A stretch of 64,000 nucleotides of DNA from Cyanidioschyzon merolae. Taxonomy: Eukaryota. Below are positions 790 through 56,530 of this stretch, piece by piece. A model generated the notes under the pieces. The model was not told the origin of the DNA and searched no databases. It saw nothing but the letters and a program-made list of their open reading frames with translations. Numbering within the stretch: position 1 is the stretch's first letter; every line of letters starts with the position of its first letter. The stretch lies in NCBI GenBank assembly GCA_000091205.1, contig AP006499.2. One strand, 5' to 3'. The translations under genes and the position numbers were made by a program.

Positions 790-3545
790 CATCTCGCGAA
801 GTGAGCGCATCTGGGGGATCAGGCAGTCAATTGGAGCGACGCGCGTGTCGCCGTTGTTGAAGGGAAACGCGATGTTGATCTCTAGTGTGTTGTTCAGCTG
901 TAAAAGTTGTATTTGCGTTGGAGTCGAACAAAAATATAGTTTTCAATTCATTTGTGTTTCAGCCCTCAAACAAGTCTAGTCAAGTGTTCTTTCGCAGTAT
1001 ATAACAGAAGGGTTCACAGAGCGTTCTTTCTCAAGAAACTGAAAAAAGAAAAGTTATGAAAAGCAAGTCCACGATCCTGGAGGCCCAGGGCCGCCGGCTG
1101 CCAGACAAAAAAAACGAAAAACAGTGCCGAGTCCAGAAGAAAAGGAAGAGAAGAAGAACCGAAATGGGGAGGCCCTACGTCGAAGGCTGCAAGAAAGACG
1201 ACAGTACAACGAGATGGTGGTGAAAGCCTTTCTTCTTGGACATATCAAGGATCCGTACAGGGAAAAGTTGCGAGACGCTATCGAAAAACTTGTCGACTCG
1301 TACTCCAAGAGTACTGTCAAGGCGTCGTCAGGACTGATGCATTTGGCGAGGGAGATGTACGAAGACGTGGCGCACATGGAAACGGTCGAGATTCCGGACG
1401 AGTTTTTCGACAAGACGTTTATTCGTCACCTGATGCTTGGTACAGCGGAAACGCGGAGGGAAAATGAGCGGGTTCACGCTCTTCACGAAAACTTCGCGGA
1501 GCTCCGCTTCGAGAGTAATCGATACAGGGGTGATCGGGATATTTAGACAAACGGAGCGAAAAAGCACATCACCAGTCTGAAGTACCATTTGACAGTGAAC
1601 ATCGAACGTTTCGTGATACGGGCCGTGTTTCCACTCTACTCGAGCCTATCTCGCAATGGAAAATGGGCGATTATCAATGACATCACGAACGATCGTAATC
1701 ATGAAGATGAGGTCGAATTTGTCGACAAGAAGGCGGCAAACCAGAGCACGAATGAAGCTTCTGAAATCCGTGCGGTTATACAAGAGCACCGTGCGGTACT
1801 AGGGTTGGCGAATCCAACAGAAAAGATATCAGAGCTGAAAAAAGATAAGGAAAGATGCTATCGCCTCGTCTTACGGTATTTCGCGTTTTCGTTCCGAGAA
1901 CTCGAACCCAAGACCGAAAAGCGTCTGAGTAGGGGAAAAATGCAGAGTCGGAGAGACGGAAGGTTTTTGCAATGGGGAAGCGCTTCAACGTGGTTCCAAT
2001 GTGCAACATTAAGTCACATTTTGTGAGTATCGACTCCGGCGTCCTTTACGGCATCATGAAAGAGATCTGTCGGAGTTCAGTGTCAGCAGGGAGGAATTCA
2101 CCGGCGAAAACCGGGAGACGTACTGGAGGATTAACTTCAATTTCAAACGTCTGGAAGCGAGCAAACAGCAGGTATTCACTGGAATGATCGAAACCGATGG
2201 AGTAGCCTTGCGTGTACACTATCGGCGGTTGAAGAAAGATCGTCCAGTTCCGCCCTCGGCGAACCATGAAGATGAGAAGGAGGCGGATCCTGTGACGCAG
2301 GAGGTGGAGGATAACGACTTTATGGTTGGCGCGGCGAAGCATAAAGATGGGAAGGAGGCGGGTCCTGCGACGCAGGAGGTGGAGGATAACGACCTTGTCG
2401 TTGACGTAACGAAGGATGAAGATAAGAAGGAGGCGGATCCTGCGATGCAGGAGGTGGAGGATAGCCACATTGTCGTTAGCGCTACGAAGCATGAAGAAAA
2501 GAAGGAGGCGGGTCTTGAGACGCAGAAAGTGCATGATGACGACTTTGTCGTTGGCGCTGACCCCAGAAACACAAATATCATCACCATCGCAGCACCGAAG
2601 CGCGCAGAAGATAGTACTGACGGTAACTTGCGTCAGAAAGACATGCGTCTGCTGAGGTTCTCGAGAGCGAGATACGGCCGAGAATCGGGAATCATGAATG
2701 CAAGGAACAAAATCGAGACTTGGAATACAGGAATGAAGGATCTCCTGGAAGCTATGAGCAAGGTGACGAGCCGAGGAGCGGACTTTCATGCTTTTCGGGA
2801 GTTTATGCAAGTTCGTGTTGCTCATTGGGATGCACTGTGGGAGGAGTATACAAAGCCCCGGTGGGCTCGGTTGCGTATGAATTTGTACAGTGGGAAGCAG
2901 CGGGAGTTCGCGATCTTTTTCAATCACTTGAGTGCCCTCAAAGAGGACAAGACTCAAAGGCTCGTAGTAGCATACGGAGCAGGGCGCTGGGCGCCCAAGA
3001 AAGGTACTACGCCAGCTCCAACGACGAGGATGTACAAGTCGTGTGCACGGCGTTTTCTTACAATACCTGTAGATGAGTTTCGAATGTCCTACACACACCT
3101 CGAGCTGGTTTGTACACTTCAGAGGGTCGAGATGGAAAAGTGCCAGCCGAGCCCTGAGGAAATAGCAAAGTACGGACCGCTGACGGAGGAGCAAATGGAA
3201 AGGAGAGCGAAATTTCGTGGACTACTGGCACTGGTGAGTACAACTCCCAACGGCACGAATCGTATGGAGTTTGTTAACCGAGACTTTAACGCCGCTCTCA
3301 ATATAAGGAAATGTGCGGTGCTGGAGACGAGACCTCCAGAGTGGACAAGAGGGAACTTTTTTGGACAACCTCTTCAAGTTCAGTTATATGAGAAGAAGTT
3401 GGAAGCAGCAGTAGGTGGCCGGTCGAAAGAAACTGGAAGGCGTCTGTACGTCAGTTGGAGACTTCTTGGCTAGGGCACGGTTGCCGCCACTACTGTACAC
3501 CGCTGGCGTCGTTCGACTTTCGAACGGCGTTCGGATGCGGCGGAC
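790..3545 (+). mobile_element. TnpB/Fanzor-like (RuvC-nuclease) transposon, copy 1; pseudogenised
   Basis: About 2.7 kb homologous over its whole length to the reverse complement of 23445-26065 and 53700-56530. The 5' non-coding leader 'gcatctggggg..gtcgccgttg(ttg)aagggaaacgcgat..' is shared. The ORF encodes RuvC-I '[20 protein letters not shown]', '[25 protein letters not shown]' and RuvC-III 'NRDFNAALNIRKC'. A conserved tail 'ccactactgtacaccgctggcgtcgttcg' continues past the stop codon. Boundaries are approximate (+/-30 bp). Confidence 0.7.
1056..3473 (+). pseudogene. Fanzor/TnpB-like nuclease ORF of copy 1, interrupted
   Basis: Pieces 1056.., 1124..1546 (in-frame TAG where copy 3 reads YIYGAMKY), 1589..2026, 1972..2187 and 2184..3473 (429 aa intact C-terminal RuvC-like core). 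Frameshifts and the nonsense codon were found by comparison with the other two copies. Confidence 0.7.
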
Positions 3546-14009: not shown

Positions 14010-15256
14010 CGCGGCGAAACGACGTTGACCACGACTTTGGCGACGATGACGATGACGCTGATAACGAACAGCGCTCTCTGAACGCCAGTTTCAAGTGCCT
14101 CGTCACGCCAGAAGCTCTAAGGAAACGTTCACGACAACGACGACGACAACAACAACAGCAACGACAACCACGAAGGAGCGTTAGACGTTCGCCAGCACAC
14201 CAGCGTCGCGAATGCTCCGAAACGGAACGCCGGAGCGGAGCGCGCCAGCCCGTCCAGATTCGGCAACGCGACGTCGGGCGAATCGCGCAGGCAGCAGCAC
14301 GGCGCGCCAGCGCCCAGAGGCCTCCGTATGGATGTGTTCCGATTTTGCTCAGATTTTACAGGATGTTGACACAGGCCAGCGTGCCGCCACGGGGTGGTGC
14401 GCGTGCGATCCGCGCGCGGTGAAGAAGCATCCAGCATACGACATCGGAGAACGCTGGCCTAAGTAAACGTTTTGTCAATGAAAAAAATCCAGCATTCGAC
14501 GCCCTATGTCCAAATTCTATAATCCATGCTTCCTTCCGAACGGACTGGCCGTTCCATACGCTCTATCGTGCGCCGAGTGCGTGCGTTGCTGCATCCGCAA
14601 TAGAGCATATATCGCAGGTGCTTGTGCAGCTCGGAGATAGAACGGCTCTTCGATACCACCTAGGGCGCTTCGGCTCGAGGTATCATGCATTCAACACCGG
14701 ATCGCGTCTCTCCATCATTCTGGGGGCCTGCAAGCTGCGCAGCGAGACTGACTGCCCACGACAGCGCGAAACGATACGCAAGGAGATAACTGCAACCGGG
14801 GCGATACCTGGATGCATGCTACCCGCCCCTAGTCTCAAAATGAACCGCGTTACGGATGAGTCGCTGAGAGCTGACTACAGCTCCCGCCACTGTAGAAGAA
14901 TACGGAGCGATAGCCCGGTAGATGCGTCCATCTCGGGGGATCTTACGCCTAGCAGCTAAACATTCGACAATACGGAACGCTTCCCGCCCCTTTTCAACGC
15001 TTACCACGAAGGTGTAACGAAAAAATGGTCGCGTTGCTCGTTCATGATTCGTTGCTGTTCTCGGTTTTGGGTAGCCAGTCGCGATCGATCGCGGATCGCT
15101 GGCGGCCGCACGTTGCCGGCGGGCATGAACGGCCGCCGCACCTGCATCCGCTTACGGAGGCGGCTTCTGGCCACTCGGGCATATCTTGAAATATTTCAGA
15201 CGCAGAGACTAGCACTTTGCGCTGAAGAGTTGGTTGACCGAAGAGACGTGAACGGC

Positions 15257-23444: not shown

Positions 23445-26065
23445 AAGCACGGGTCTGCGTCTTACTTAGCGATGAGCCGCCACGAACGATAAACGTCTTT
23501 CAAAAGAAAAACGCTGTCGCCAGTCGTGTACAGTAGTGGCGACCGGCGCCTTAGACAAACCGTCTCCAACTCAGTGTAGACGCCTCCCCGTCTTTTGGAC
23601 CGGCCACCTACTCCTGCTTCCATTTTTTTCTCATATAGTTCCACTTTGGGAGGTTGTCCAAAAAAATTGTCTCTTGGCAAGTCGTCTCCAGCACCGTACA
23701 TCTCCGTATACTGATAGCGGCATTAAAGTCACGATTCACAAACTCCATACGTTTCTTGCCATCACTGGTTGTGCTAACCAATGCAAGTAGTCCCCGAACT
23801 TTCGCCCTGCTTTCCATTTGCTCTTCCGTCAGCGGTCCATACTTTTTTATATCCTCAGGGCTCCTCTGGCACTTTTCCATATCGACCCTCTGAAGTGTAC
23901 ACCCCAGTTCATGGTGTGTATACGATGTTCAAATTTCATCTACAGGTATCGTAACGAAACGCCTTGCGCACTCCTTGATCGTTCCTGTCGTTGGAGCTGG
24001 CGTAGTCCCTTTTTTCGACGCCCAGCGCCCTGCTCCGTATGCTACAACCAGCCTCTGACTTTCATTCTCCTTGAGGGCACTCAACTCATTGAAAAAATTC
24101 GGAAATCCCCGCTGCTTCTCACAGTATAGATTCATCCGCAGACGAGCCGACCGGAGCTTTGTATACTCTTCCCAAAGTGCATCCCAATGCGCAACATGAA
24201 CTTCCAGGAACTCCCAGAACGCTTCAAAGTCCGCTCCACGGCTCGTCATCTCGCTCAGAGCTTCCAGGTGATCCTTCATTCCATGTCTCGACTTTCTTCC
24301 TCGCATTCATTATACCGGATTCTCGATGGTATCTTGCTCTCGAGAACCTCAAAAGACGCATGTCTTTCTGACGAAAGTTGCCCTCAGTACCATCTTCCGC
24401 ACGCTTCGGTGCTGCGATGGTGATGATATTTGTGTTTCCGGGGTCCGCGCCAACAACAAAGTCGTTCTCCTGCACTTTCTGTGTGGCAGGATCCGCGTCC
24501 TTCTTTTCTTCATGCTCAGCCGCGCCAACGACAAGATCGTTATCCTCCACCTCCTGCATCACAGGATCCTCCTCTTTGTTTTCTTCATCCATCGTTACGG
24601 GCGCAGCCGAGGGCGGAACTGGCCAATCTTTCTTCGACGGCCGATAGTGTACACACAAGGCTACTCCATCAGTTTCGATCATCCCAGTGAATACCTTTTG
24701 TTTGCTCACTTTGAGACTTTTGAAATCGAAGACGTTCTTCCGGTACGTCTCCCGGTTTTCGCCGGTGAATTCCCCCCCTGCTGACACTGAACCCCAGACT
24801 GATCTCCTTCATGATGCCGTAAAGGATTCTGGAATCGATGCTCACAAAATGTGACTTGATGTTGCACACTGGAACGGCACTGAAGCGCTTCCCCATTAGG
24901 AAAGTCTTCCGGTCTAACGACTCTTCATTTTTTCCTCACTCAGATCCATCTCCGCCTTGCGTTCGAGTTCTCGGTCCAAAAATACGAAATCGCGCAGAAT
25001 TAAGGGACCACATCTTTTTCTATGTCTTCTCATATCTGATACCTCTGCTGCTGGATTCGCCAGCCCCAAGACTGCACGTTGCTCTTGTATAGCCTCACGG
25101 ATTGCAGAAGCTTAATTCTTTCTCTTGCGTAATCTCTTCTTGTCAACGAACTCGATCTCATCTTGATACTTTCGATCGTTCGTGATGCCATTGATAATCG
25201 CCCATTTTCCATCGCGAGATAGGCCCGAGTAGAGTGCAAACATGGCGCCTATCATGAAACGTTCGAGGTTTACTGTCAAATGGTTCTTCAGATTCGTGAG
25301 GTACTTCATCGCCCCATAGTCGTAAATATCCCGGTCACCCCTGTATCGAGTACCCTCGAAGCGGAATTCCGCGAAGTTTTCGTGGAGGGCATCCACTAGC
25401 ACATTTTCCTTCAGCGCTTGCGCTGTACCAAGCATCAGTTGACGAGTCAAGGTCTTGTCGAAGAATTCTTCCGGAATCTCGACCGTTTCCATGTGCATCA
25501 CGTCGCCGTACATCTCCCTCGCCAAATGCATCAGCCCTGACGACGCCTTGACAATACTCTTCGAGTCTGAGTTGACACGTTTTTGATAGCATCTCGCAAG
25601 TTTTCCTTCGACGGATCCTTGATATATTTAAGAAGACCGGCGTTCACCACCATCTCGTCGTACTGTCGTCTTTCTTGCCGCCTTCGACGTAGCACCTCGC
25701 CCTTTTGCTTCTTCGCCTTTTCCTGTTCCTCTATATTCGGAACTGGTTCCGTTTTTCTCCGGCAGCTGTCCACGCTACTCCTCCAGGATATTTTACTTCC
25801 TTTTCCATAACTTTCCTTTTTTCAGTATTTTTCGGAAAGAACGCTCTTCGAACGCTTCTGTTATAAACCGCGAAAAATCACTTGAATTATCTAAACCGAA
25901 GTTTGAGACACGATTGAACAGAAAACTATAGTTTGCTATGACTTGAACGCAAATGCAACTTGTACGGCAGAGCAAGATCATAAACATCAGGACCACGTTT
26001 CCCTCCAACGGCAACATGCGCGTAGTATCTCATGCCTGCATGATCTCCCAGGTACGCGTATCGAA
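23445..26065 (-). mobile_element. TnpB/Fanzor-like transposon, copy 2; pseudogenised
   Basis: ORF fragments 25812<-25531, 25531<-25112, 24896<-24669, 24787<-24224 ([17 protein letters not shown]), 24306<-23929, 23880<-23608 (NRDFNAAISIRRC) and 23701<-23462 are homologous in order to copy 1. The stop codon is lost, so the frame reads into the conserved tail. The tail ends ~30 bp from the proA ATG. Confidence 0.7.
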
Positions 26066-27031
26066 CACACTATGTGGAACAAAGAACAGAGACGAACGAT
26101 TCACGAGCTTCGATATATATATATATTTCGTTCCCCCCTCTACGATGAACGTTACAAGGGGGAAAGATTTCGGTATTTTAGAAAGTTTACCTCCTAGGCG
26201 GAAGGTCCATAGAGCCGTACGAGTCTGCTAGGCTGGTGCTCGGTGTGCCTCTAAAGTGGCTGGTGCTTTAGCGAGACCTGAGCAACTCGTCTGCAACGCA
26301 GTTTATACTAGGTCTCGGATAGGGTATGCTGCGTTTGGGCGTCGCCCAGGTCCTAGTGGGCTCCTTGTATATCGCTTCGCGCTACCACAGGCAGAACGTC
26401 TCTCTGTACAGCTTGCAGGCTCCCAGAATGATAATTAACCGTGATTCCGTGTCAGGTGTAGGATTCTGCGAGCCGACGCCCTCAGTGGTATGGCAAAGTC
26501 GTTCTGTCTCCGTGCAGCGTCTGCCCCAGTGGTATACGCGCTACGGCGGGTGCAGCAAGGCAGGCACTCGGCACACGACAGAACATACGAAACGGCCAGT
26601 ATACCCGAGAGGAAGTATAAGTAGTGGAACTTGAATGTAGGTGCTTCATCACTGACGCTTTCCCGCAAGCCATGACCCATCCCGAATTCTGGGATGCATG
26701 GTCAATGTAATCGTTTTGTCATCTGGAAAAACAGCAACATGAACATCGACGACATGCGTCATGAGAAACGTGCCAAGGAATGCTAGTCATATACAAAGCG
26801 GTCATGCGAATCCAGAAATCATGGACATGGGCATCGCAATGCCGGTCCATGATCGACAGCCATGCGAACATGCATGACATGTCCATTGCAATGCGACAAT
26901 CTATGACATGCGGCGATGAAAGAGCGTGCAGCGAACGCGCGCGCCGATCGACATGGCGCGCCGCGATCGAGACGCGCGCGTCGTTCGCGCGGCGGTGACC
27001 TGTTTTCGGTAACGCACAAACGACGACGAGT

Positions 27032-31444: not shown

Positions 31445-32002
31445 TCAGATCCAATCCTCCTCGTTTTTCTCCACCTCTTTAAGCGCGATTTTTGCTGTCC
31501 AGTTCCCTTTCCAGTCAGTGCTTAGCTGAACGCGACCTTGTTTCGCGACCCCAATGCACTTACCTGCAGTATCGCAGGCAACCCCGAGTTTGATTGGCGC
31601 GAACTCCTCCGGCTGCCCCTTCAGTCGGAAGGTTTTAATGAGTCCCGCGCGCACCACTGCGTACCGGTAGCGCAGCTTGCTGTGTGAGGTTGCCAGAATA
31701 CCGTGCAAGCGGAAAGTCTCGCCAGAATCCAACACCCAATCCCGTTTGACAGCGACCCGTGAGCTGATCCGGTTATAGCAGTCGACTTTGCCACCCAGCG
31801 TAACCGTAGAAGGGAACCATGCGCCCCTTACGGAAAAGTCCTTCTGGTAGCTCGCCTGGAAGTAAGGGGAGCCCAGTCCGGGCGAAGCGATGCCCAGCAG
31901 CTGCAACACACCGCCGTCACGAAAGCAAAAGTCCCGTGATGCGACCGCATCCCAGTCACGGTTCACTGATTCATAAACGAGAGAAACCTCAGTTTTACTC
32001 AT
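31445..32002 (-). CDS. hypothetical beta-strand-rich protein (~186 aa)
   Basis: The ORF is open to 32641, but the upstream part is Arg/Ala-rich antisense-like sequence and overlaps the 109-bp satellite. The plausible start is MSKTEVSLVYESV at 32002. Alternating hydrophobic/polar pattern. Function unknown. Confidence 0.35.
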   Translation of the reverse strand: MSKTEVSLVYESVNRDWDAVASRDFCFRDGGVLQLLGIASPGLGSPYFQASYQKDFSVRGAWFPSTVTLGGKVDCYNRISSRVAVKRDWVLDSGETFRLHGILATSHSKLRYRYAVVRAGLIKTFRLKGQPEEFAPIKLGVACDTAGKCIGVAKQGRVQLSTDWKGNWTAKIALKEVEKNEEDWI

Positions 32003-32599
32003 TATAAACAAAAAGCCGGTGCGCTTCACCTGATAACTCTGCTCTACGATAACCGTAGCCCGCGAGCGAACAGCACCAACAACGCACAGGCTGCGAGCTG
32101 CACCGATCCCGTTTCGAGCACGTTTAAACCGGCGTGCGGAACGCCCACGTGGCCGTGACCCCCCGTATACCGCACGCGGCTGTGCCTGCACACGCAGCGG
32201 CCGTCGTACGATCGAGCGCAGCCCTTGCGGGCACGCAGGGACGTTGCGCGGGGCGCTTGCCGCCACGGCCTGGGCATCCGCGGGAACACGAGCCGGATCG
32301 CCTGCCGATGCATGCGCCAGGTACGCAAAAGGAGCTTTGTTCTGTTTTCCCCTATTTGTTTGCATAGGACGCATGATTTGTATGCACATGGCAGCGCCGC
32401 TTGGAGCAGCGATACAACGTCTTCGGCGAGCGTCGTCGCGCTGCACAGCAGACAGGGCGCATTCGCGACTAGACGAAGCGCACAGGTGGTATGCGGCTCG
32501 AGGTTCGCGTCTCGTGGCAACGTGTGGGCAGCATCCGGGAGCGAGATACGTCGCCACTGCGATGTTTGCGTTGGTTGCGCGGGCGCTCCGAACTCTTTC

Positions 32600-33155
32600 T
32601 GAATGGACTAGCACTGAAGAACCACGCGTCTGGAGTCGCATCCTCGAACTTGATGGTCATGACTCACCAGTTCATTGCGAGTATCCGTCGAGGACACTAA
32701 AATGTCGGGGATTGGATGCATATCGAGAAACCACGCGTCTGGAGTCGCATCCTCGGACTTGATGGGTATGACTCACCAGTTCATTGCGAGTATCCGTCGA
32801 GGACACTAAAATGTCGGGGATTGGATGCATATCGAGAAACCACGCGTCTGGAGTCGCATCCTCGGACTTGATGGGTATGACTCACCAGTTCATTGCGAGT
32901 ATCCGTCGAGGACACTAAAATGTCGGGGATTGGATGCATATCGAGAAACCACGCGTCTGGAGTCGCATCCTCGAACTTGATGGGTATGACTCACCAGTTC
33001 ATTGCGAGTATCCGTCGAGGACACTAAAATGTCGGGGATTGGATGCATATCGAGAAATCATGCGTCTGGAGTCGCATCCTCGAACTTGGTGGGTATGACT
33101 CACCACTTCATTGCGAGTATCCGTCGAGGACACTAAAATGTCTAGAGGTTGACTC
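32600..33155. repeat. tandem satellite, ~109-bp unit x ~5
   Basis: 'ccacgcgtctggagtcgcatcctcg(a/g)acttgatgg' recurs at 32622, 32731, 32840 and 32949, with a degenerate copy near 33057. The unit contains 'ccgtcgaggacactaaaatgtcggggattggatgcatatcgagaaac'. Confidence 0.9.
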
Positions 33156-41765: not shown

Positions 41766-42543
41766 CGCCTCGCTCGCCCGGAATGCCGATCAGCATCGCG
41801 CAGTCGAGAATCCCTGCTCCATCGCAACGCTCCGTTGATCCGGCGTTCAGGAGCGCCTCGCTCGCCCGGAATGCCGATCAGCATCGCGCAGTCGAGGATC
41901 CCTGCTCCATCGCAACGCTCCGTTGATCCGGCGTTCAGGAGCGCCTCGCTCGCCCGGAATGCCGATCAGCATCGCGCAGTCGAGAATCCCTGCTCCATCG
42001 CAACGCTCCGTTGATCCGGCGTTCAGGAGCGCCTCGCTCGCCCGGAATGCCGATCAGCATCGCGCAGTCGAGAATCCCTGCTCCATCGCAACGCTCCGTT
42101 GATCCGGCGTTCAGGAGCGCCTCGCTCGCCCGGAATGCCGATCAGCATCGCGCAGTCGAGGATCCCTGCTCCATCGCAACGCTCCGTTGATCCGGCGTTC
42201 AGGAGCGCCTCGCTCGCCCGGAATGCCGATCAGCATCGCGCAGTCGAGAATCCCTGCTCCATCGCAACGCTCCGTTGATCCGGCGTTCAGGAGCGCCTCG
42301 CTCGCCCGGAATGCCGATCAGCATCGCGCAGTCGAGGATCCCTGCTCCATCGCAACGCTCCGTTGATCCGGCGTTCAGGAGCGCCTCGCTCGCCCGGAAT
42401 GCCGATCAGCATCGCGCAATCGAGAATCCCTGCTCCATCGCAACGCTCCGTTGATCCGGCGTTCAGGAGCGCCTCGCTCGCCCGGAATGCCGATCAGCAT
42501 CGCGCAGTCGAGGATCCCTGCTCCATCGCAACGCTCCGTTGAT
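41766..42543. repeat. tandem minisatellite, 88-bp unit x ~9, immediately upstream of GALT
   Basis: Unit 'cgcctcgctcgcccggaatgccgatcagcatcgcgcagtcgag(a/g)atccctgctccatcgcaacgctccgttgatccggcgttcaggag'. Copies differ mainly at gagaatcc versus gaggatcc. Confidence 0.92.
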
Positions 42544-42739
42544 CGAGGAAGTACGCCAAGCATCAAGCGGCCGTCACGTGTGCGTGCTGCTCCCGGTCGC
42601 ACGCGCGCTCCTGCCGCCGACCCAGGCGATCTCGCGTCGGGCGCGCACCGCATTATGTCTGTACCATGCTTTGTTTGCTATTTAGGGTATCTTCTCATCG
42701 AAGAAGCGCCCTGGGACCTAACATCCAACTACACCAAGC

Positions 42740-43213: not shown

Positions 43214-44842
43214 AACGGCTGGAGCCGTCTGGGCACACGTACTGTCCAGAACCTGTGCACCGGGAATAGTCCCTATGATGAAAAATTCCTATTTTACTCG
43301 GAACGTAAAGCACGGCGCGAATCGCTTTCGCCTTGAGCCGCCGACGCATCCGCGCGCCGTATTTTTTGACTGCGGCCGCATTTGAGTCTGGCGTCTTGTC
43401 CATGCGTTGTGAGCGCGCGATAACGTGCAGGAGAAACGAGTAGTTCCAGAAGGTGCACCAGACACCATTCGGGTCGTAGGCCGATCTCCAAACGGCTTTT
43501 TGCGAGACGCACCTGTGAAGATGGAGGCTGTCGAGAGCGCGCGCCCTGCTCCGCACTGTACCAAATTCCGGGGACGATCGCGTTCGAGCGCGGGAGCAGC
43601 GCCTCCCGTAAGCAATACGGACCCCATCAAGGCAACCGCCGGGGCTGCGATGCGCGCTACCCCTGCGGGTGATGGCTCCTGAACGTGCACCATCACAGCT
43701 GGGCGTACCAGCGAGCGAACAAAGCGCATCAGCGAGCAGAGCACATGATCGTATGGAACATCGGCATCGGGGGAGCTTTTACTCGTATACGCTGTAGCAT
43801 CAAACGAATACTTAAACCCACATATACCAAGCATACCTACAAACCCGACGATTGTTTGCCCCTAACCGCACAAGCGGATGCATCGCAGCGGCGGCGGCGG
43901 CGGCGGCCGGGGCCGCTCCATATTTCTCCAGCAGGGATCCGATCGTTGACGCATCAAGCGGGTATCCCGGGATGGCGCGATCGCTGCCAGCCTCTGGAAT
44001 GCGGCTCCAGTCGGGACGGGGCGGGACCAGCCGGGCGTGCCCGCTGGTGTGGCATTCTCGACGCATGCCCAGTCGATGCTCCTCGGCGGCGCGTAAAATC
44101 GGCATCACCACCCGTCCGTGCGAACGTGCTGTGCGCATGCAAGAACGATGAGCTGCAGCGCTCTCGCAGACAGCGTCAGGCGACGTCGAGTTCGAGTGTG
44201 TGGGTTTTTTTTCATTGAGAAAACGTTTACTTTGGCCAGCGTTCGCCGATCATGCGCATTGTTCTTTTCTTACCTTTTTTTCTCTTTTTTTCCAGTGCGC
44301 GGTAATGTATCTATCAACCCCCCACTCCCAAGTTACATTACCTGCACTTCTTCTCGGATATTCTGGTCGTTTCGTACGTCCAATCGTGTGCCTAGTGCCT
44401 GCCGAACGCGACAGCAATAGCGCCTATAGCGCCGGTACGGTCGCTGCACGGAGACAGAACGGCGTTGCTGTACCACACAAAGGGCGCCGGCTCGAGGTCG
44501 AGTGTGTGGGTGAGCGCGCGCGCGCGCGCGCGCGTGATCAGAGCGAGGCACACCGCACGCACACCTAGAGTCGCTGTCCATGCGCCACGTGTGCATGAAC
44601 CCCGCGCACCGGTCCAAAACGGAGCGTGCGCCGTACCACCCCGGTGATCCAGGCGCGCCAAACTGGGACTAGGCGCGGCATCGCGACGAGCCTCTCGCAG
44701 AGCGCCCGTTAGCGACGTCCCGCACCGGCGCCGCCCAGTCGAGAACGAATGCCGCCCCCCGGTGATGCCAGACGCGCGCGAATGTTCGCCACTGTCGGAA
44801 TGCTTCCTGTTGCTGCGTGCTGGAGCAATACCTCGGACGGGA

Positions 44843-53707: not shown

Positions 53708-56530
53708 CGAAACGAGCCCAAAACGTGCGATGAACGACGCCGACCGTGTACAGCAGTGGCGAACCGTACGCCCTGGACAGACCGTGTCCAACTGACGTGT
53801 AGACGCCTCCCCGTCTTTTCGGACCGGGCATCCACCACTGCTTCCAACTTCTTCTCATATAATTCCACTTTTAGAGGTTGTCCAATAAAGTTCTCTCTTG
53901 TCCAATCTGGAGGTCTTTCCTCCAGCACCGCACATTTCCTTATATGGATAGCGGCATTGAAGTCTCGGTTCACATACTCCATCCGTTTTTTGTTGCCATT
54001 GATTGTACGAACAAGCGCAAGGAGTCCACGAACGTTCGCCCTTCTTTCCATTTGCTCCCCCGTCATCGGTCCGTGCTTTGCTATTTCCTCAGGGCTCCGT
54101 TGGCACTTTTCTATCTCCACTCTCTGAAGTGTACACCCCAGTTCCTGGTGTGTATACGATGTTCGAAACTCATCTACAGGTATCGTAACAAAACGCCTTG
54201 CGCACGCCTTGTACACCCTCGTCGTTGGAGCTGGCGTAGTTCCTTTTTGGGTCATCCATCGTCCTGCCCCGTACGCTACAACCAGCCTTTGACTTTCATC
54301 CTCCTTCAGGACGCTCAACTCATTGAAAAATTCGCGAACGCCCGCTGGTTCCCACAATACAAATTCATTCGGAAACGAGCCCACCGGGGCTTGGTATACT
54401 CCTCCCACAGCGCATCCCAATGGGCAACACGAACTTCCATGAATTTCCGAAAAGCTTCAAAGTCCGCTCCACGGCTCGTCATCTCGCTCAGAGCTTCCAG
54501 GTGATCCTTCATTCCATGTCTCGACTTTCTTCCTCGCATTCATTATACCGGATTCTCGATGGTATCTTGCTCTCGAGAACCTCAAAAGACGCATGTCTTT
54601 CTGACGAAAGTTGCCCTCAGTACCATCTTCCGCACGCTTCGGTGCTGTGATGGTGATGATATTTGTGTTTCCGGGGTCCGCGCCAACAACAAAGTCGTTA
54701 TCCTGCACTTTCTGTGTCACAGGACCTGCCTTCTTGGTTTCTTCATGCTTCTCCGCGTAAACGACATGCACGTTATCCTCCACCTCCTGCGTCGCAGGAT
54801 CCACCTCCTTCTTTTCTTCATCCTTCGCCGCGTAAACGACAAGGTCGTTATCCTCCACCTCCTGCATCGCAGGACCAGCCTCCTCCCTTTCTTCATGCTT
54901 CGTCGTGTCAACGACAAGGTCGTTATCTTGCACCCTCTGCGTCGCAGGATCCGCCTCCTTCTCATCTCCATCCTTCGCCACGTCAACGACATGCACGTTA
55001 TCCTCCACCTCCTGCGTCGCAGGACCAGCCTCCTCCTTTTCTTCATCCTTCGTCACGGGCGCAGCTGAGGGAGGGACTGGCCGATCTGCCTTCAACCGCC
55101 GATAGTGTACACACAAGGCTACTCCATCGGTTTCGATCATTCCAGTGAATATCTTTTGTTTGCCGACTTTGAGCCGTTTGAAATCGAAGATATTCTTCCA
55201 GTACGTCTCCCGGTTTTCGCCGGTGAACTCTGTCCTCCTTACATCGAACTCCGGACTGATCTCCTTCATGATGCCGTAAAGGATTCTGGAATCGATGCTC
55301 ACAAAATGTGACTTGATGTTGCACATTGGAACCACGTTGAAGCGCTTCCCCATTAGGACAGCCTCCCGTCTCTCACACGCTTCATTTTTTTCCTCACTCA
55401 GCTTCGTTTCTGCCTTGCGTTCGAGCTCTCAGTCCAGAAACACGAAATATCGCAGGACGAGGCGATAGTATCTTTTCTTATCTTTTTTCATCTCTGATAT
55501 CTTGTCTGTTGGATTCACGAGCCCCAAGACTGCACGGTGCTCTTGTATAGCCGCACGGATTCCAGAAGCTTCATTCGTGAACTAGTTTGACGCTTTCTTG
55601 TCAACGATTTCGACCTCATCTTCACGCTTGCCATCTTTCGTGATGCCATTGATCATCGCCCATGTTCCTTTGCGAGATAGGCCCGGGTAGAGTGCAAACA
55701 CGGCGCGTATCATGAAACGTTCGAGGTTCACTGTCAAATGGTTCTTCAGGTTCGTGATGTACTTCATCGCCCCGTATATGTAAAAATTCGAGTCGCCCTT
55801 GTATCGAGTACCCTCGAAGCGGATTTTGGCGAAGTTTTCGTGGAGGTGCACTAGCACATTTTCCCTCCGCGTTTTCTCTCCACCAAGCATCAGGTGTCGA
55901 ATAAACGTCTTGTCGAAAAACTCGTCCGGAATCTCGACCGTTTCCATATCCGTCACGTCGCGATACATCTCCCTTGCCAAATGCATCAGTCCTGACGACG
56001 CCTTGACAACAATCTTGGAGTACGAGTCGACACGTTTTTTGATAGCGTCTCGCAACTTTTCCCTGTAGGGATCCTTGATATGTCCAAGACGAAAGGTTTT
56101 CACCACCTTCTCGTCGTACAGTCGTCTCTCGTGACGCCTTCGACGTAGGGCCTCCCCCTTTCGGTTCTTCTTCTCTCCCTGTTCTTCTGGACTCGGCACT
56201 GTTTTTTGTTTTTTTCTAGCAGCCGGCGACCATGGCCCTCCAGGATCGTGGACTTGCTTTTTCATAACTTTCCTTTTATTAGTTTTTTTTTGAAAAAGAA
56301 CCCTCTTTGAACCCTTGTGTTATATACTGCGAAAAAACACTTGACTAGACTTGTTTGAGGTTTGAAGCAAAAACGAACTGAAAGACTGTACTTTGCCACG
56401 TCTTTAACGCAAGTACAGCTTGCACATTAGAGCAGCACGCTATTGATCAGGATCGCGTTTCCCTTCAACGGCGACAAGTGCGTCGCATCAGTTGACTGCC
56501 CGATCTCCCAGATGCGCTCAGTGAGCGCGC
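53700..56530 (-). mobile_element. TnpB/Fanzor-like transposon, copy 3; pseudogenised
   Basis: Collinear with copy 1. Pieces are 56265<-55582 (227 aa basic N-terminus 'RKKQKT..KKNRKGEALRRRRHERR'), 55353<-54457 (298 aa with ~6 acidic repeat units and [17 protein letters not shown]), 54539<-54315 and 54420<-53704 (VDEFRTSYTHQELGC..NRDFNAAIHIRKC). Confidence 0.72.

What the first reader, a model, noticed from the sequence alone, without database searches (positions are those of the whole stretch)
2262..2560. Variable-copy acidic 26-29 aa tandem repeat inserted directly before the RuvC-I motif
Units of the form 'K(H/D)E(E/D)KKEA(D/G)[13 protein letters not shown](D/G)' are reiterated. Copy 1 has ~4 units, copy 2 has ~2 (24470-24600) and copy 3 has ~6 (54700-55060), with a DNA period of 78-87 bp. 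The repeat ends in '[13 protein letters not shown]', which is the RuvC-I strand. The repeat unit itself looks like a reiterated, mutated copy of that strand (compare '[13 protein letters not shown]' and '[13 protein letters not shown]').
Basis: seen in the sequence. Interest (0 to 1): 0.5.

Follow-up and report, generated by a model that had tools for sequence, protein, structure and literature searches.

The report
Unstable acidic repeat in Fanzor nuclease
Three decayed copies of a known red-alga transposon gene (the Fanzor1 RNA-guided nuclease of Cyanidioschyzon merolae) carry a 75-base in-frame tandem repeat just before the enzyme's first catalytic residue; its copy number varies, it evolves neutrally, and it looks like an ordinary unstable coding minisatellite, not a new functional module.

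Summary
The repeat is real, but the unit is exactly 75 bp (25 aa), not 78-87 bp (26-29 aa). There are 4, 2 and 5 units in the three copies.

The window is Cyanidioschyzon merolae 10D chromosome 17. The three copies are CMe-1A Fanzor1 transposons (Bao & Jurka 2013). Their published consensus protein has a single unit, and the paper's main text does not use the word 'tandem'.

A family profile matches solved Fanzor1 structures (E = 4.5e-19 to 3.4e-7). An AlphaFold model of the window ORF matches the same structures. This puts the array between the last WED hairpin and the RuvC-I strand.

Each unit is a 17-aa acidic linker plus the first 8 aa of that strand. DNA homology between units stops after the first base of the catalytic Asp codon. 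Only the last unit carries that Asp: 48 of 48 terminal units, 0 of 99 internal units.

Internal units are predicted to be disordered, carry a net charge of about -6, and evolve at dN/dS of about 1. The adjacent RuvC core evolves at 0.19.

Relatives carry 1-6 units. Near-identical orthologous loci differ by units that are chimeras of their neighbours, which points to out-of-register recombination or slippage.

All three window copies are pseudogenes. Verdict: an undescribed but ordinary coding minisatellite in a known element. Interest is low to moderate.

The parts
802..3508 (+). CMe-1A Fanzor1 element, copy 1. It starts at about position 691 of the published consensus. It is a pseudogene: one in-frame stop and two frameshifts lie upstream of 2184.
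   Evidence: Self-BLAST and MAFFT of the three copies; BLAST to the published consensus; frame walk.
2184..3473 (+). Remaining open frame of copy 1 (429 aa): last WED hairpin, repeat array, and the RuvC core with the degenerate TNB region.
   Evidence: ORF list. AlphaFold mean pLDDT 75.9, core above 90. Foldseek best matches SpuFz1, PpFz1, GtFz1.
2262..2561 (+). Repeat array of copy 1: 4 units of 75 bp (2262-2336, 2337-2411, 2412-2486, 2487-2561). The last unit is the true start of the RuvC-I strand.
   Evidence: TRF; in-phase units and DNA identity matrix. Residues 26-103 have pLDDT below 50; the strand E121-127 is FVVGADP.
2559..2561 (+). RuvC-I catalytic Asp codon (D126 of the ORF). It is the last codon of the terminal unit, and repeat homology ends after its first base.
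   Evidence: Invariant column D126; aligned with the D383 position of SpuFz1; codon position; boundary.
3075..3077 (+). RuvC-II Glu codon (E298, in VDEFR).
   Evidence: Invariant column E298; aligned with the 'LDEYKTS' segment of SpuFz1; codon position. Equivalence to the metal ligand E541 named in PMC10432273 is inferred from motif position; residue numbers were not mapped.
3282..3284 (+). RuvC-III Asp codon (D367, in NRDFNAA).
   Evidence: Nearly invariant column; aligned with 'NRD' of SpuFz1 and PpFz1; codon position.
23494..26723 (-). CMe-1A element, copy 2. It is full length against the published consensus, including the 5' part that resembles TE-N2_CMe. It is a pseudogene.
   Evidence: BLAST to the consensus; ORF fragments; alignment.
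24443..24592 (-). Repeat array of copy 2: 2 units (24592-24518, 24517-24443).
53746..56520 (-). CMe-1A element, copy 3. It starts at about consensus position 691. It is a pseudogene.
54676..55050 (-). Repeat array of copy 3: 5 units.
24221..24466 (-). Tract in copy 2 that matches copy 3 (54454-54699) at 245 of 246 bases, against about 82% identity elsewhere. It begins inside the terminal repeat unit and carries a shared 8-bp deletion. It is read as ectopic gene conversion.
   Evidence: Sliding identity and mismatch list.

Best explanation
This is an in-frame 75-bp minisatellite (a coding VNTR) in the Fanzor1 nuclease gene of the CMe-1A transposon family of Cyanidioschyzon merolae. It lies in the disordered linker between the last WED hairpin ([14 protein letters not shown]) and the first RuvC strand.

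Origin (inferred from the boundaries): a 75-bp segment was duplicated in tandem. The segment covered the 17-codon acidic linker plus the first 8 codons of RuvC strand 1 (DNDFVVGA), and it ended one base into the catalytic Asp codon.

Consequences (shown): only the unit that is continuous with DPGNTN supplies the real strand and the Asp. Internal units are extra acidic loop, about -6 net charge each. They are predicted to be unstructured and their residues are not under purifying selection.

Dynamics (shown from sequence): unit number changes through out-of-register recombination or replication slippage between neighbouring units, which leaves chimeric units. Dispersed copies also exchange sequence by gene conversion.

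Function: the three window copies are pseudogenes, so here the array does nothing. I infer that in intact ancestors the expansion was tolerated because the linker loops out of the fold.
For: - Identity of the element: exact protein look-ups place the window in C. merolae 10D chromosome 17. The copies match the CMe-1A consensus (PMC3627910).
- Fanzor1 membership and position of the array: profile against PDB gives PpFz1 at 4.5e-19, SpuFz1 at 1.1e-11 and GtFz1 at 3.4e-7, with DPG aligned to DPGR/DPNK/DPGK. Foldseek of the model gives 5e-11 to 5e-6 for the same proteins.
- Repeat boundary: shown at nucleotide level.
- Catalytic Asp: position 25 is Asp in 48 of 48 terminal units and in 0 of 99 internal units.
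- Disorder: residues 26-103 have pLDDT below 50, next to a core above 90.
- Selection: dN/dS is 1.25 between internal units within arrays, 0.99 between first units of different loci, 0.80 between terminal units, and 0.19 for the 60 codons after the array.
- Copy number: 1-6 units in 49 protein homologues and in 65 distinct metagenome arrays. The published consensus has 1 unit. The relatives P0113 (48% identical to the window ORF) and P0121 (63% identical to P0113) have none.
- Recent change: loci with 98.7-99.2% identical flanks differ in unit number (3 vs 5, 2 vs 3, 3 vs 4). In the two pairs examined in detail (L027/L022, L057/L043) the extra units are chimeras of adjacent units.
- Linker variability: across 116 distant Fanzor1 representatives this stretch is variable in length (median 35 aa from TDGx to the Asp), with occasional low-complexity inserts.
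- Decay: arrays decay like the rest of the element; 13 of 65 carry stops or frameshifts.
Against: - A nearly intact ORF with 4 units exists (L009). It aligns to CMe-1 residues 18-699 and keeps all catalytic motifs. Multi-unit proteins may therefore have been made, and an effect on activity is not excluded.
- Acidic composition and reading frame are kept in most arrays: 58 of 65 have exact 75-bp spacing. This could reflect constraint on composition only, which dN/dS cannot detect.
- The dN/dS values come from short, non-independent pairs.
- The differences between orthologous loci come from metagenome assemblies of unknown read type. Collapse of near-identical units during assembly would mimic contraction.
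Confidence: 0.8

Rival explanations
1. The acidic units are a functional, copy-number-tunable module of the nuclease. Two versions are possible. They could act as an intramolecular mimic of nucleic acid that damps omega-RNA or DNA binding near the RuvC site. Or they could be a docking loop for a host factor, like the RuvC insertion of PpFz1 that binds cyclophilin.
For: - Each internal unit has a net charge of about -6.3 and is 34% Asp+Glu.
- Composition and frame are kept in most arrays.
- A nearly intact ORF carries 4 units.
- There is a precedent for a lineage-specific functional insertion in a Fanzor1 RuvC domain (PMC11423790).
Against: - dN/dS is about 1 for internal units against 0.19 for the core.
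- Unit number ranges from 1 to 6 with no preferred value.
- The published family consensus has one unit.
- The relatives P0113 and P0121 have none.
- Arrays keep changing in copies that are already dead.
- No fold is predicted.
Confidence: 0.1
2. The internal copies of 'DNDxVV' act as decoy strands. They compete with the true strand 1 for the RuvC sheet. Because they lack the catalytic Asp, they would yield an inactive or switchable nuclease.
For: - Internal units keep a hydrophobic core at positions 20-22 (L/F, V, V in 76-90% of units).
- They never carry Asp at position 25.
Against: - AlphaFold places only the terminal FVVGADP in the sheet, with high confidence, and leaves the others as coil.
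- Positions 23-25 of internal units are free to vary: DVT, GAA, DAA, YAA, SAT and others.
- Codons 18-25 of internal units show no purifying selection (dN/dS 2.3).
Confidence: 0.03
3. The array or its variation is an artefact: low-complexity sequence arising by chance, or an assembly error.
For: The three orthologous pairs that differ in unit number come from metagenome assemblies of unknown read type. The L022 array holds near-identical units that an assembler could collapse.
Against: - TRF scores are 183-502 against 0-86 in shuffles.
- Units within the window differ by 9-29%, enough divergence that I consider assembly collapse unlikely.
- The orthologous loci of copies 1, 2 and 3 in independent metagenomes reproduce 4, 2 and 5 units.
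Confidence: 0.01

Closest known systems
CMe-1A transposon and CMe-1 Fanzor1 protein of Cyanidioschyzon merolae (Bao & Jurka 2013, Mob DNA 4:12)
   Same: It is the same element family. About 150 copies are each about 80% identical to a 3169-bp consensus, with no terminal inverted repeats. The window copies match the consensus at 82-91% in the end segments tested. The consensus protein reads '...[49 protein letters not shown]...'.
   Different: The published consensus DNA and protein contain a single unit, and the paper's main text does not contain the word 'tandem'. The window copies have 4, 2 and 5 units, and relatives have 1-6.
Solved Fanzor1 nucleases SpuFz1 (8gkh), PpFz1 (9cf0) and GtFz1 (9cer)
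   Same: They share the RuvC fold, the motif order TDG hairpin, linker, DPG, then DEF/DEY..TS, then NRD, and significant profile and fold matches.
   Different: Identity is only 12-20%. None has a tandem repeat in the WED-to-RuvC-I linker. The C. merolae clade lacks the CxxC pairs of the TNB zinc ribbon. The extra domain of PpFz1 (the FRI domain, which binds cyclophilin) is inserted inside RuvC, at a different site (PMC11423790).
Coding minisatellites (intragenic tandem repeats), for example those of yeast cell-wall adhesin genes (named from my own knowledge, not looked up here)
   Same: The units are in frame with a length that is a multiple of three. Copy number varies between copies. Chimeric units show out-of-register recombination or slippage.
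   Different: In the yeast cases, repeat number changes a measurable phenotype. Here no function is shown, the units evolve neutrally, and most carriers are dead transposon copies.
Low-complexity inserts in the same linker of other Fanzor1 proteins (for example P0161, P0142, P0263)
   Same: They sit in the same position, between the TDG hairpin and DPG. They are rich in Asp, Glu and Lys and vary in length.
   Different: No repeat periodicity was evident in the longest inserts as listed (no formal repeat scan was run), and they do not duplicate the start of the RuvC strand.

Membership tests
Fanzor1 (eukaryotic TnpB-like RNA-guided nuclease) | Significant sequence similarity to experimentally characterised Fanzor1 proteins | tested here: met
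   A profile of 64 family members against PDB sequences gives PpFz1 at 4.5e-19, SpuFz1 at 1.1e-11 and GtFz1 at 3.4e-7, with no other hit. A shallow profile of close relatives alone found nothing.
Fanzor1 (eukaryotic TnpB-like RNA-guided nuclease) | RuvC (RNase H-like) nuclease fold resembling solved Fanzor, TnpB or Cas12 structures | tested here: met
   The AlphaFold model of window 2184-3470 has mean pLDDT 75.9 and a core above 90. The Foldseek top 7 are SpuFz1, PpFz1 and GtFz1 (E = 5e-11 to 5e-6), followed by Cas12 proteins.
Fanzor1 (eukaryotic TnpB-like RNA-guided nuclease) | Catalytic residues: Asp in 'DPG/DPN', Glu in 'DEF/DEY..TS', Asp in 'NRD' (D383, E541 and D606 in SpuFz1) | tested here: met
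   D126, E298 and D367 of the window ORF are invariant or nearly invariant columns. They align with the corresponding SpuFz1 and PpFz1 motifs. Residue roles are taken from PMC10432273; the match of E298 and D367 to E541 and D606 is by motif position. Codons are given.
Fanzor1 (eukaryotic TnpB-like RNA-guided nuclease) | N-terminal WED and REC portion present and in frame | tested here: inconclusive
   The family profile aligns to PpFz1 over profile positions 144-452, which includes the TDG hairpin. In all three window copies this part is broken by stops and frameshifts. The full-length model of P0113 failed (pLDDT 35.6).
Fanzor1 (eukaryotic TnpB-like RNA-guided nuclease) | TNB zinc ribbon (CxxC...CxxC) between RuvC-II and RuvC-III | tested here: not met
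   38 of 39 scanned members have no CxxC in this segment. Pfam PF07282 gives only sub-threshold hits, E = 0.22 to 0.0012. The segment is present but lacks the cysteines.
Fanzor1 (eukaryotic TnpB-like RNA-guided nuclease) | Omega RNA encoded at the 3' end of the element | tested here: inconclusive
   The 3' 185 nt of 40 copies are well conserved. RNAalifold found only a 3-bp GCG/CGC stem (columns 161-175) with a hypervariable loop just after the stop codon (by eye extendable to a 4-bp GGCG/CGCC stem), and no covariation. No expression data are available.
CMe-1A (Repbase family of C. merolae) | Nucleotide similarity of about 80% to the published consensus, in the C. merolae genome | tested here: met
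   The host was identified by exact protein matches. Only the first 910 and last 89 bases of the consensus were compared with the window. Consensus 2-910 matches copy 2 at 83%. Consensus 691-908 matches copies 1 and 3 at 82-84%. The 3' end matches at 82-91%.
Coding minisatellite (in-frame VNTR) | Head-to-tail units of 10-100 bp with a length that is a multiple of three, in frame | tested here: met
   75-bp units with no gaps or stops in the three window arrays. 58 of 65 other arrays have exact 75-bp spacing.
Coding minisatellite (in-frame VNTR) | Copy-number variation between copies or alleles, with signs of unequal exchange | tested here: met
   1-6 units. Three orthologous pairs differ in number; in the two pairs examined in detail the extra units are chimeras of their neighbours. 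Caveat: these are metagenome assemblies.
Structured or selected repeat domain | Purifying selection on unit sequence and a predicted fold | tested here: not met
   dN/dS is 0.9-1.25 for internal units against 0.19 for the core. Residues 26-103 have pLDDT below 50 and are modelled as coil.

The most novel reading that the evidence does not exclude
The acidic 25-aa units are a copy-number-tunable regulator of the Fanzor1 nuclease. Each unit adds about -6 charge and a catalytically dead copy of the first RuvC strand, right beside the active site. Expansion and contraction of the minisatellite would then tune or silence RNA-guided cleavage, by mimicking nucleic acid or by competing for the strand position. 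That would give the transposon family a rapidly evolving activity dial.
Probability: 0.06. Interest if true: 0.6.

Novelty: new member of a known kind. Interest (0 to 1): 0.22.

Why it matters
The practical value is modest.

- It shows that the WED-to-RuvC-I linker of a Fanzor1 carries insertions of up to 125 acidic residues in natural copies, at least one of them with a nearly intact ORF. If such proteins are active, this would interest people who engineer Fanzor or TnpB enzymes and want a permissive insertion site next to the active site.
- It refines a published consensus. CMe-1 is recorded with one unit, while many copies carry 2-6.
- It gives a clean natural example of how a tandem duplication can cut through a catalytic motif without destroying it, because the last unit stays continuous with the motif.
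- It documents ongoing minisatellite instability and gene conversion among dispersed transposon copies in a very compact algal genome.

It does not reveal a new system or mechanism.

Tried and rejected
- Pfam and NCBIfam scans of the window ORF and of a reconstructed consensus gave no significant family, only Cas12f1-like_TNB at E = 0.22.
- A profile of close relatives against PDB sequences gave nothing. The match to Fanzor1 appeared only after distant representatives were added.
- The AlphaFold model of the repeat-free, full-length relative P0113 with a 15-sequence alignment failed (pLDDT 35.6). The full WED/REC architecture was therefore not modelled.
- A literature search for Fanzor plus 'tandem repeat' returned no listed title or abstract about a repeat inside a Fanzor protein.
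- The search for a conserved omega-RNA fold in the 3' 185 nt found only a 3-bp stem.
- I considered reading the two junction types (…VVDVT|K and …VVGAA|K) as two independent founding duplications. The GCG of 'GAA' can be read as a hybrid of GAC (Asp) and ACG (Thr). But the junction codons form a continuous series of single-base variants, so this is left open.
- Long antisense ORFs across the array (for example 2046-3194 on the minus strand) were dismissed as a by-product of purine-rich codons.
Full report
**1. What is in the sequence**

Tandem Repeats Finder reports three arrays with a period of exactly 75 bp. They lie at 2260-2558 (4.0 copies, 82% matches, score 388), 24445-24588 (1.9 copies) and 54696-55052 (4.8 copies; also read as a 150-bp period).

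Each array lies in one of three mutually homologous stretches of 2.7-3.2 kb that are 80-85% identical. These are copy 1 at about 802-3508 (+), copy 2 at 23494-26723 (-) and copy 3 at 53746-56520 (-).

Phased on the reading frame, the units are 25 codons each, with no gaps. There are four in copy 1 (2262-2561), two in copy 2 (24592-24443) and five in copy 3 (55050-54676).

Dinucleotide shuffles of the window give no comparable array. The best score for a period of 30 or more was 0 in 19 of 20 shuffles and 86 in one.

The finding's coordinates, consensus peptide and quoted strings are right. Its unit length (26-29 aa), its period (78-87 bp) and its count for copy 3 (about 6) are not.

**2. What the host and the gene are**

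Six ORFs of the window are exact matches to annotated proteins of Cyanidioschyzon merolae 10D on a 1,232,258-bp record; four carry CYME_CMQ locus tags or annotated names, including CMQ017C, CMQ018C, glutamate-5-semialdehyde dehydrogenase and the AP-3 delta subunit.

The three repeats of the window are copies of CMe-1A, the Fanzor1-bearing transposon family that Bao and Jurka described in 2013. That family has about 150 copies, each about 80% identical to a 3169-bp consensus. It has no terminal inverted repeats and its class is unknown (PMC3627910).

Only the first 910 and last 89 bases of that consensus were compared with the window. Copy 2 matches consensus positions 2-910 at 83%. Copies 1 and 3 match from about position 691, at 82-84%.

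None of the three window copies is intact. A majority consensus of the three reads through a protein of about 720 aa. Each copy, however, has stops or frameshifts. Copy 1 has one in-frame stop and two frameshifts upstream of the surviving 429-aa frame at 2184-3473.

**3. Is it Fanzor, and is the array directly before RuvC-I?**

Library scans were uninformative, and a profile of close relatives found nothing in the PDB.

An exhaustive HMMER search with a family profile found 1928 cluster representatives. Most of the best 150 listed are 600-700 aa long. A 64-sequence profile built from them hits only Fanzor1 chains in the PDB: PpFz1 at 4.5e-19, SpuFz1 at 1.1e-11 and GtFz1 at 3.4e-7.

In those alignments the family motif 'FTGTIETDGVSVCVHF' pairs with 'FQGTLETDGVGVSIL' of PpFz1. 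The motif 'RVVGVDPGRTNI' pairs with 'VVVIDPNKRDIL' of SpuFz1, and 'VDEFRTT' pairs with 'LDEYKTS' (both in the SpuFz1 alignment). 'NRD' pairs with 'NRD'.

Saito et al. name E541, D383, N385 and D606 as the metal ligands of SpuFz1 (PMC10432273). The window ORF therefore has RuvC-I at D126 (codon 2559-2561). By motif position, E298 (3075-3077) is RuvC-II and D367 (3282-3284) is RuvC-III.

An AlphaFold model of the window ORF with a 72-sequence alignment has mean pLDDT 75.9 and a core above 90. Its best Foldseek matches in the PDB are SpuFz1, PpFz1 and GtFz1 (E = 5e-11 to 5e-6), followed by Cas12 proteins.

One defining feature is not met. The segment at the TNB zinc-ribbon position has no CxxC pairs in 38 of 39 members examined. 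This is consistent with the only sub-threshold PF07282 hits.

**4. Anatomy of the unit**

At DNA level all eleven window units align in register at 71-91% identity.

The terminal units of the three copies are each other's closest relatives, at 84-87%. They share the signature CAGAAAGTGCAG (Q-K-V-Q) where internal units have CAGGAGGTGGAG (Q-E-V-E). The unit next to RuvC is therefore orthologous across copies.

Homology between terminal and internal units runs through GTT GGC GCG G and stops there. The terminal unit continues AC CCC GGA (Asp-Pro-Gly), while internal units continue CG AAG (Ala-Lys). On the left, the flank CCC GT(A/G) ACG (Pro-Val-Thr) resembles the GAC GTA ACG (Asp-Val-Thr) ends of many units.

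A unit is thus the 17-residue acidic linker plus the first eight residues of the RuvC-I strand. The duplication boundary lies one base inside the catalytic codon.

Across 99 internal and 48 terminal units from the window and related loci:
- Position 25 is Asp in 100% of terminal units and in no internal unit. Internal units have Ala in 47% and Thr in 42%.
- Position 23 is Gly in 87% of terminal units. In internal units it is Asp in 60% and Gly in 27%.
- Internal units carry a mean net charge of -6.3.

In the model, residues 26-103 (units 1 to 3 and the start of unit 4) are coil with pLDDT below 50. FVVGADP (residues 121-127) is a confident strand.

**5. Distribution**

Among close homologues the unit number runs from 1 to 6. 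In 49 proteins with both boundaries, the counts for 1 to 6 units are 12, 14, 6, 11, 3 and 2, and one protein scored 0. In 65 distinct arrays from 80 metagenome loci the counts are 8, 15, 13, 18, 7 and 4. The second set is biased upward, because the query had four units.

The published CMe-1 consensus protein and DNA have a single unit. The paper's main text does not contain the word 'tandem'.

Two more distant relatives have no repeat. P0113 (48% identical to the window ORF) reads '...VREDDFVIACDPGG'. P0121 (63% identical to P0113) reads '...VRPNDFVVGCDPGL'.

In 116 more distant Fanzor1 representatives the stretch from the TDG hairpin to the Asp has a median of 35 aa. A few carry Asp/Glu/Lys-rich inserts of 50-80 aa at the same place. 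The 25-aa repeat itself turned up only in two representatives of the Cyanidioschyzon group (P0223 and P0248). No formal repeat scan was run on the other inserts.

The linker is therefore a generally permissive, variable site, and this repeat is specific to one lineage.

**6. Dynamics and selection**

Nei-Gojobori counts over 51 clean arrays give the following dN/dS values:
- 1.25 between internal units within arrays
- 0.99 between first units of different loci
- 0.80 between terminal units
- 0.19 for the 60 codons that follow the array

The nuclease core therefore diverged under purifying selection, as Bao and Jurka inferred for this old family. The repeat residues did not.

Arrays also decay. 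13 of 65 have stops or frameshifts, and 7 have a spacing other than 75 bp.

The loci orthologous to the three window copies in independent metagenomes reproduce 4, 2 and 5 units.

Three other pairs of loci have flanks that are 98.7-99.2% identical over several kilobases, yet differ in unit number: L027 (3) against L022 (5), L057 (2) against L043 (3), and L035 (3) against L025 (4). In the first two pairs the extra units are chimeras. In L022 they consist of the 5' part of one neighbour joined to the 3' part of the other, across the shared CAGAAAGTGCAGGATAACG. In L043 the junction falls at GCGACACAG. This is the signature of out-of-register recombination or slippage.

There is a caveat. These are metagenome assemblies of unknown read type, and collapse of near-identical units during assembly would look the same.

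Separately, copies 2 and 3 of the window share a tract that is identical at 245 of 246 bases (24221-24466 and 54454-54699), inside a background of about 82%. The tract starts within the terminal unit and includes a shared 8-bp deletion. This indicates ectopic gene conversion between dispersed copies.

**7. Interpretation**

The best-supported reading is a neutral, unstable coding minisatellite in a disordered linker of a known transposon-encoded nuclease (confidence about 0.8).

The repeat does not destroy RuvC-I, because the last unit remains continuous with DPGNTN. The internal units are surplus acidic loop.

A functional reading (an acidic autoinhibitor, a docking loop or a decoy strand) is not excluded. 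A nearly intact ORF with four units exists (L009, aligned to CMe-1 residues 18-699), and acidic composition is retained. Nothing positive supports it, however: there is no sequence constraint, no preferred unit number, no predicted fold, and the array keeps changing in dead copies.

**8. Novelty**

The element and its Fanzor1 protein are already known. I found no prior description of the variable tandem repeat, or of its boundary inside the catalytic Asp codon.

It is a new example of a familiar phenomenon, not a new kind of system. Interest is low to moderate. The most useful by-product is evidence that the WED-to-RuvC-I junction of Fanzor1 carries long insertions in natural copies.

Noticed in passing
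window 24221-24466 (-) and 54454-54699 (-): Copies 2 and 3, about 30 kb apart and about 82% identical overall, share a 246-bp tract with a single mismatch. It begins inside the terminal repeat unit and includes a shared 8-bp frameshifting deletion. This looks like ectopic gene conversion between dispersed CMe-1A copies.
   Followed up: partly
Fanzor1 clade of the window protein (alignment A3; window about 3078-3284 in copy 1): The segment between the RuvC-II Glu and the RuvC-III Asp, where Fanzor and TnpB proteins have the TNB zinc ribbon, has no CxxC pair in 38 of 39 members. It is only 42-69 aa long in the 12 members printed. The zinc ribbon seems to be lost in this whole clade.
   Followed up: partly
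L027 vs L022, L057 vs L043, L035 vs L025 (metagenome loci): These orthologous loci have flanks that are 98.7-99.2% identical but differ by one or two repeat units. In L022 and L043 the extra units are chimeras of their neighbours. This could be real VNTR polymorphism between populations, or assembly collapse.
   Followed up: partly
L009:1861-4194: A nearly intact CMe-1 Fanzor1 frame (778 codons, aligned to consensus residues 18-699) carries 4 repeat units and all catalytic motifs. Only the first ~17 residues are out of frame, and the last ~35 residues are cut off by a stop.
   Followed up: partly
window 2562-2567 (copy 1) and orthologues L001, L003, L004, L047: Copy 1 and its orthologues read DPR instead of DPG directly after the catalytic Asp. 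6 of 65 arrays are followed by PRNTNI.
   Followed up: no
window 14503-15003 (+) and 44328-44497 (+): Two further fragments match the 5' part of the CMe-1A consensus, the part said to equal the non-autonomous element TE-N2_CMe, at 74-78% identity. They have no Fanzor gene attached.
   Followed up: no
window 32620-33142 and 41766-42544: Two very homogeneous tandem arrays are present: 109 bp x 4.8 copies and 88 bp x 8.9 copies, both 98% identical. Their periods are not multiples of three, and by coordinates they lie largely outside the ORFs of 300 aa or more (the first overlaps the end of ORF 31445-32641 by 22 bp). Their nature is unknown.
   Followed up: no
window about 3474-3508 (copy 1); alignment A5 columns 161-175: Just after the Fanzor stop codon, a conserved short GC stem (RNAalifold: 3 bp; by eye a 4-bp GGCG...CGCC) encloses a loop that is the most variable part of an otherwise well-conserved 3' end, followed by the conserved CACTACTGTACAC. 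It could be part of the omega RNA or of the transposon end. No covariation was seen.
   Followed up: partly
window 2046-3194 (-), 2219-2587 (-), 54559-55068 (+): Long ORFs run antisense to, or out of frame with, the repeat. I consider them by-products of the purine-rich GAR/AAR codons of the array and not genes.
   Followed up: no
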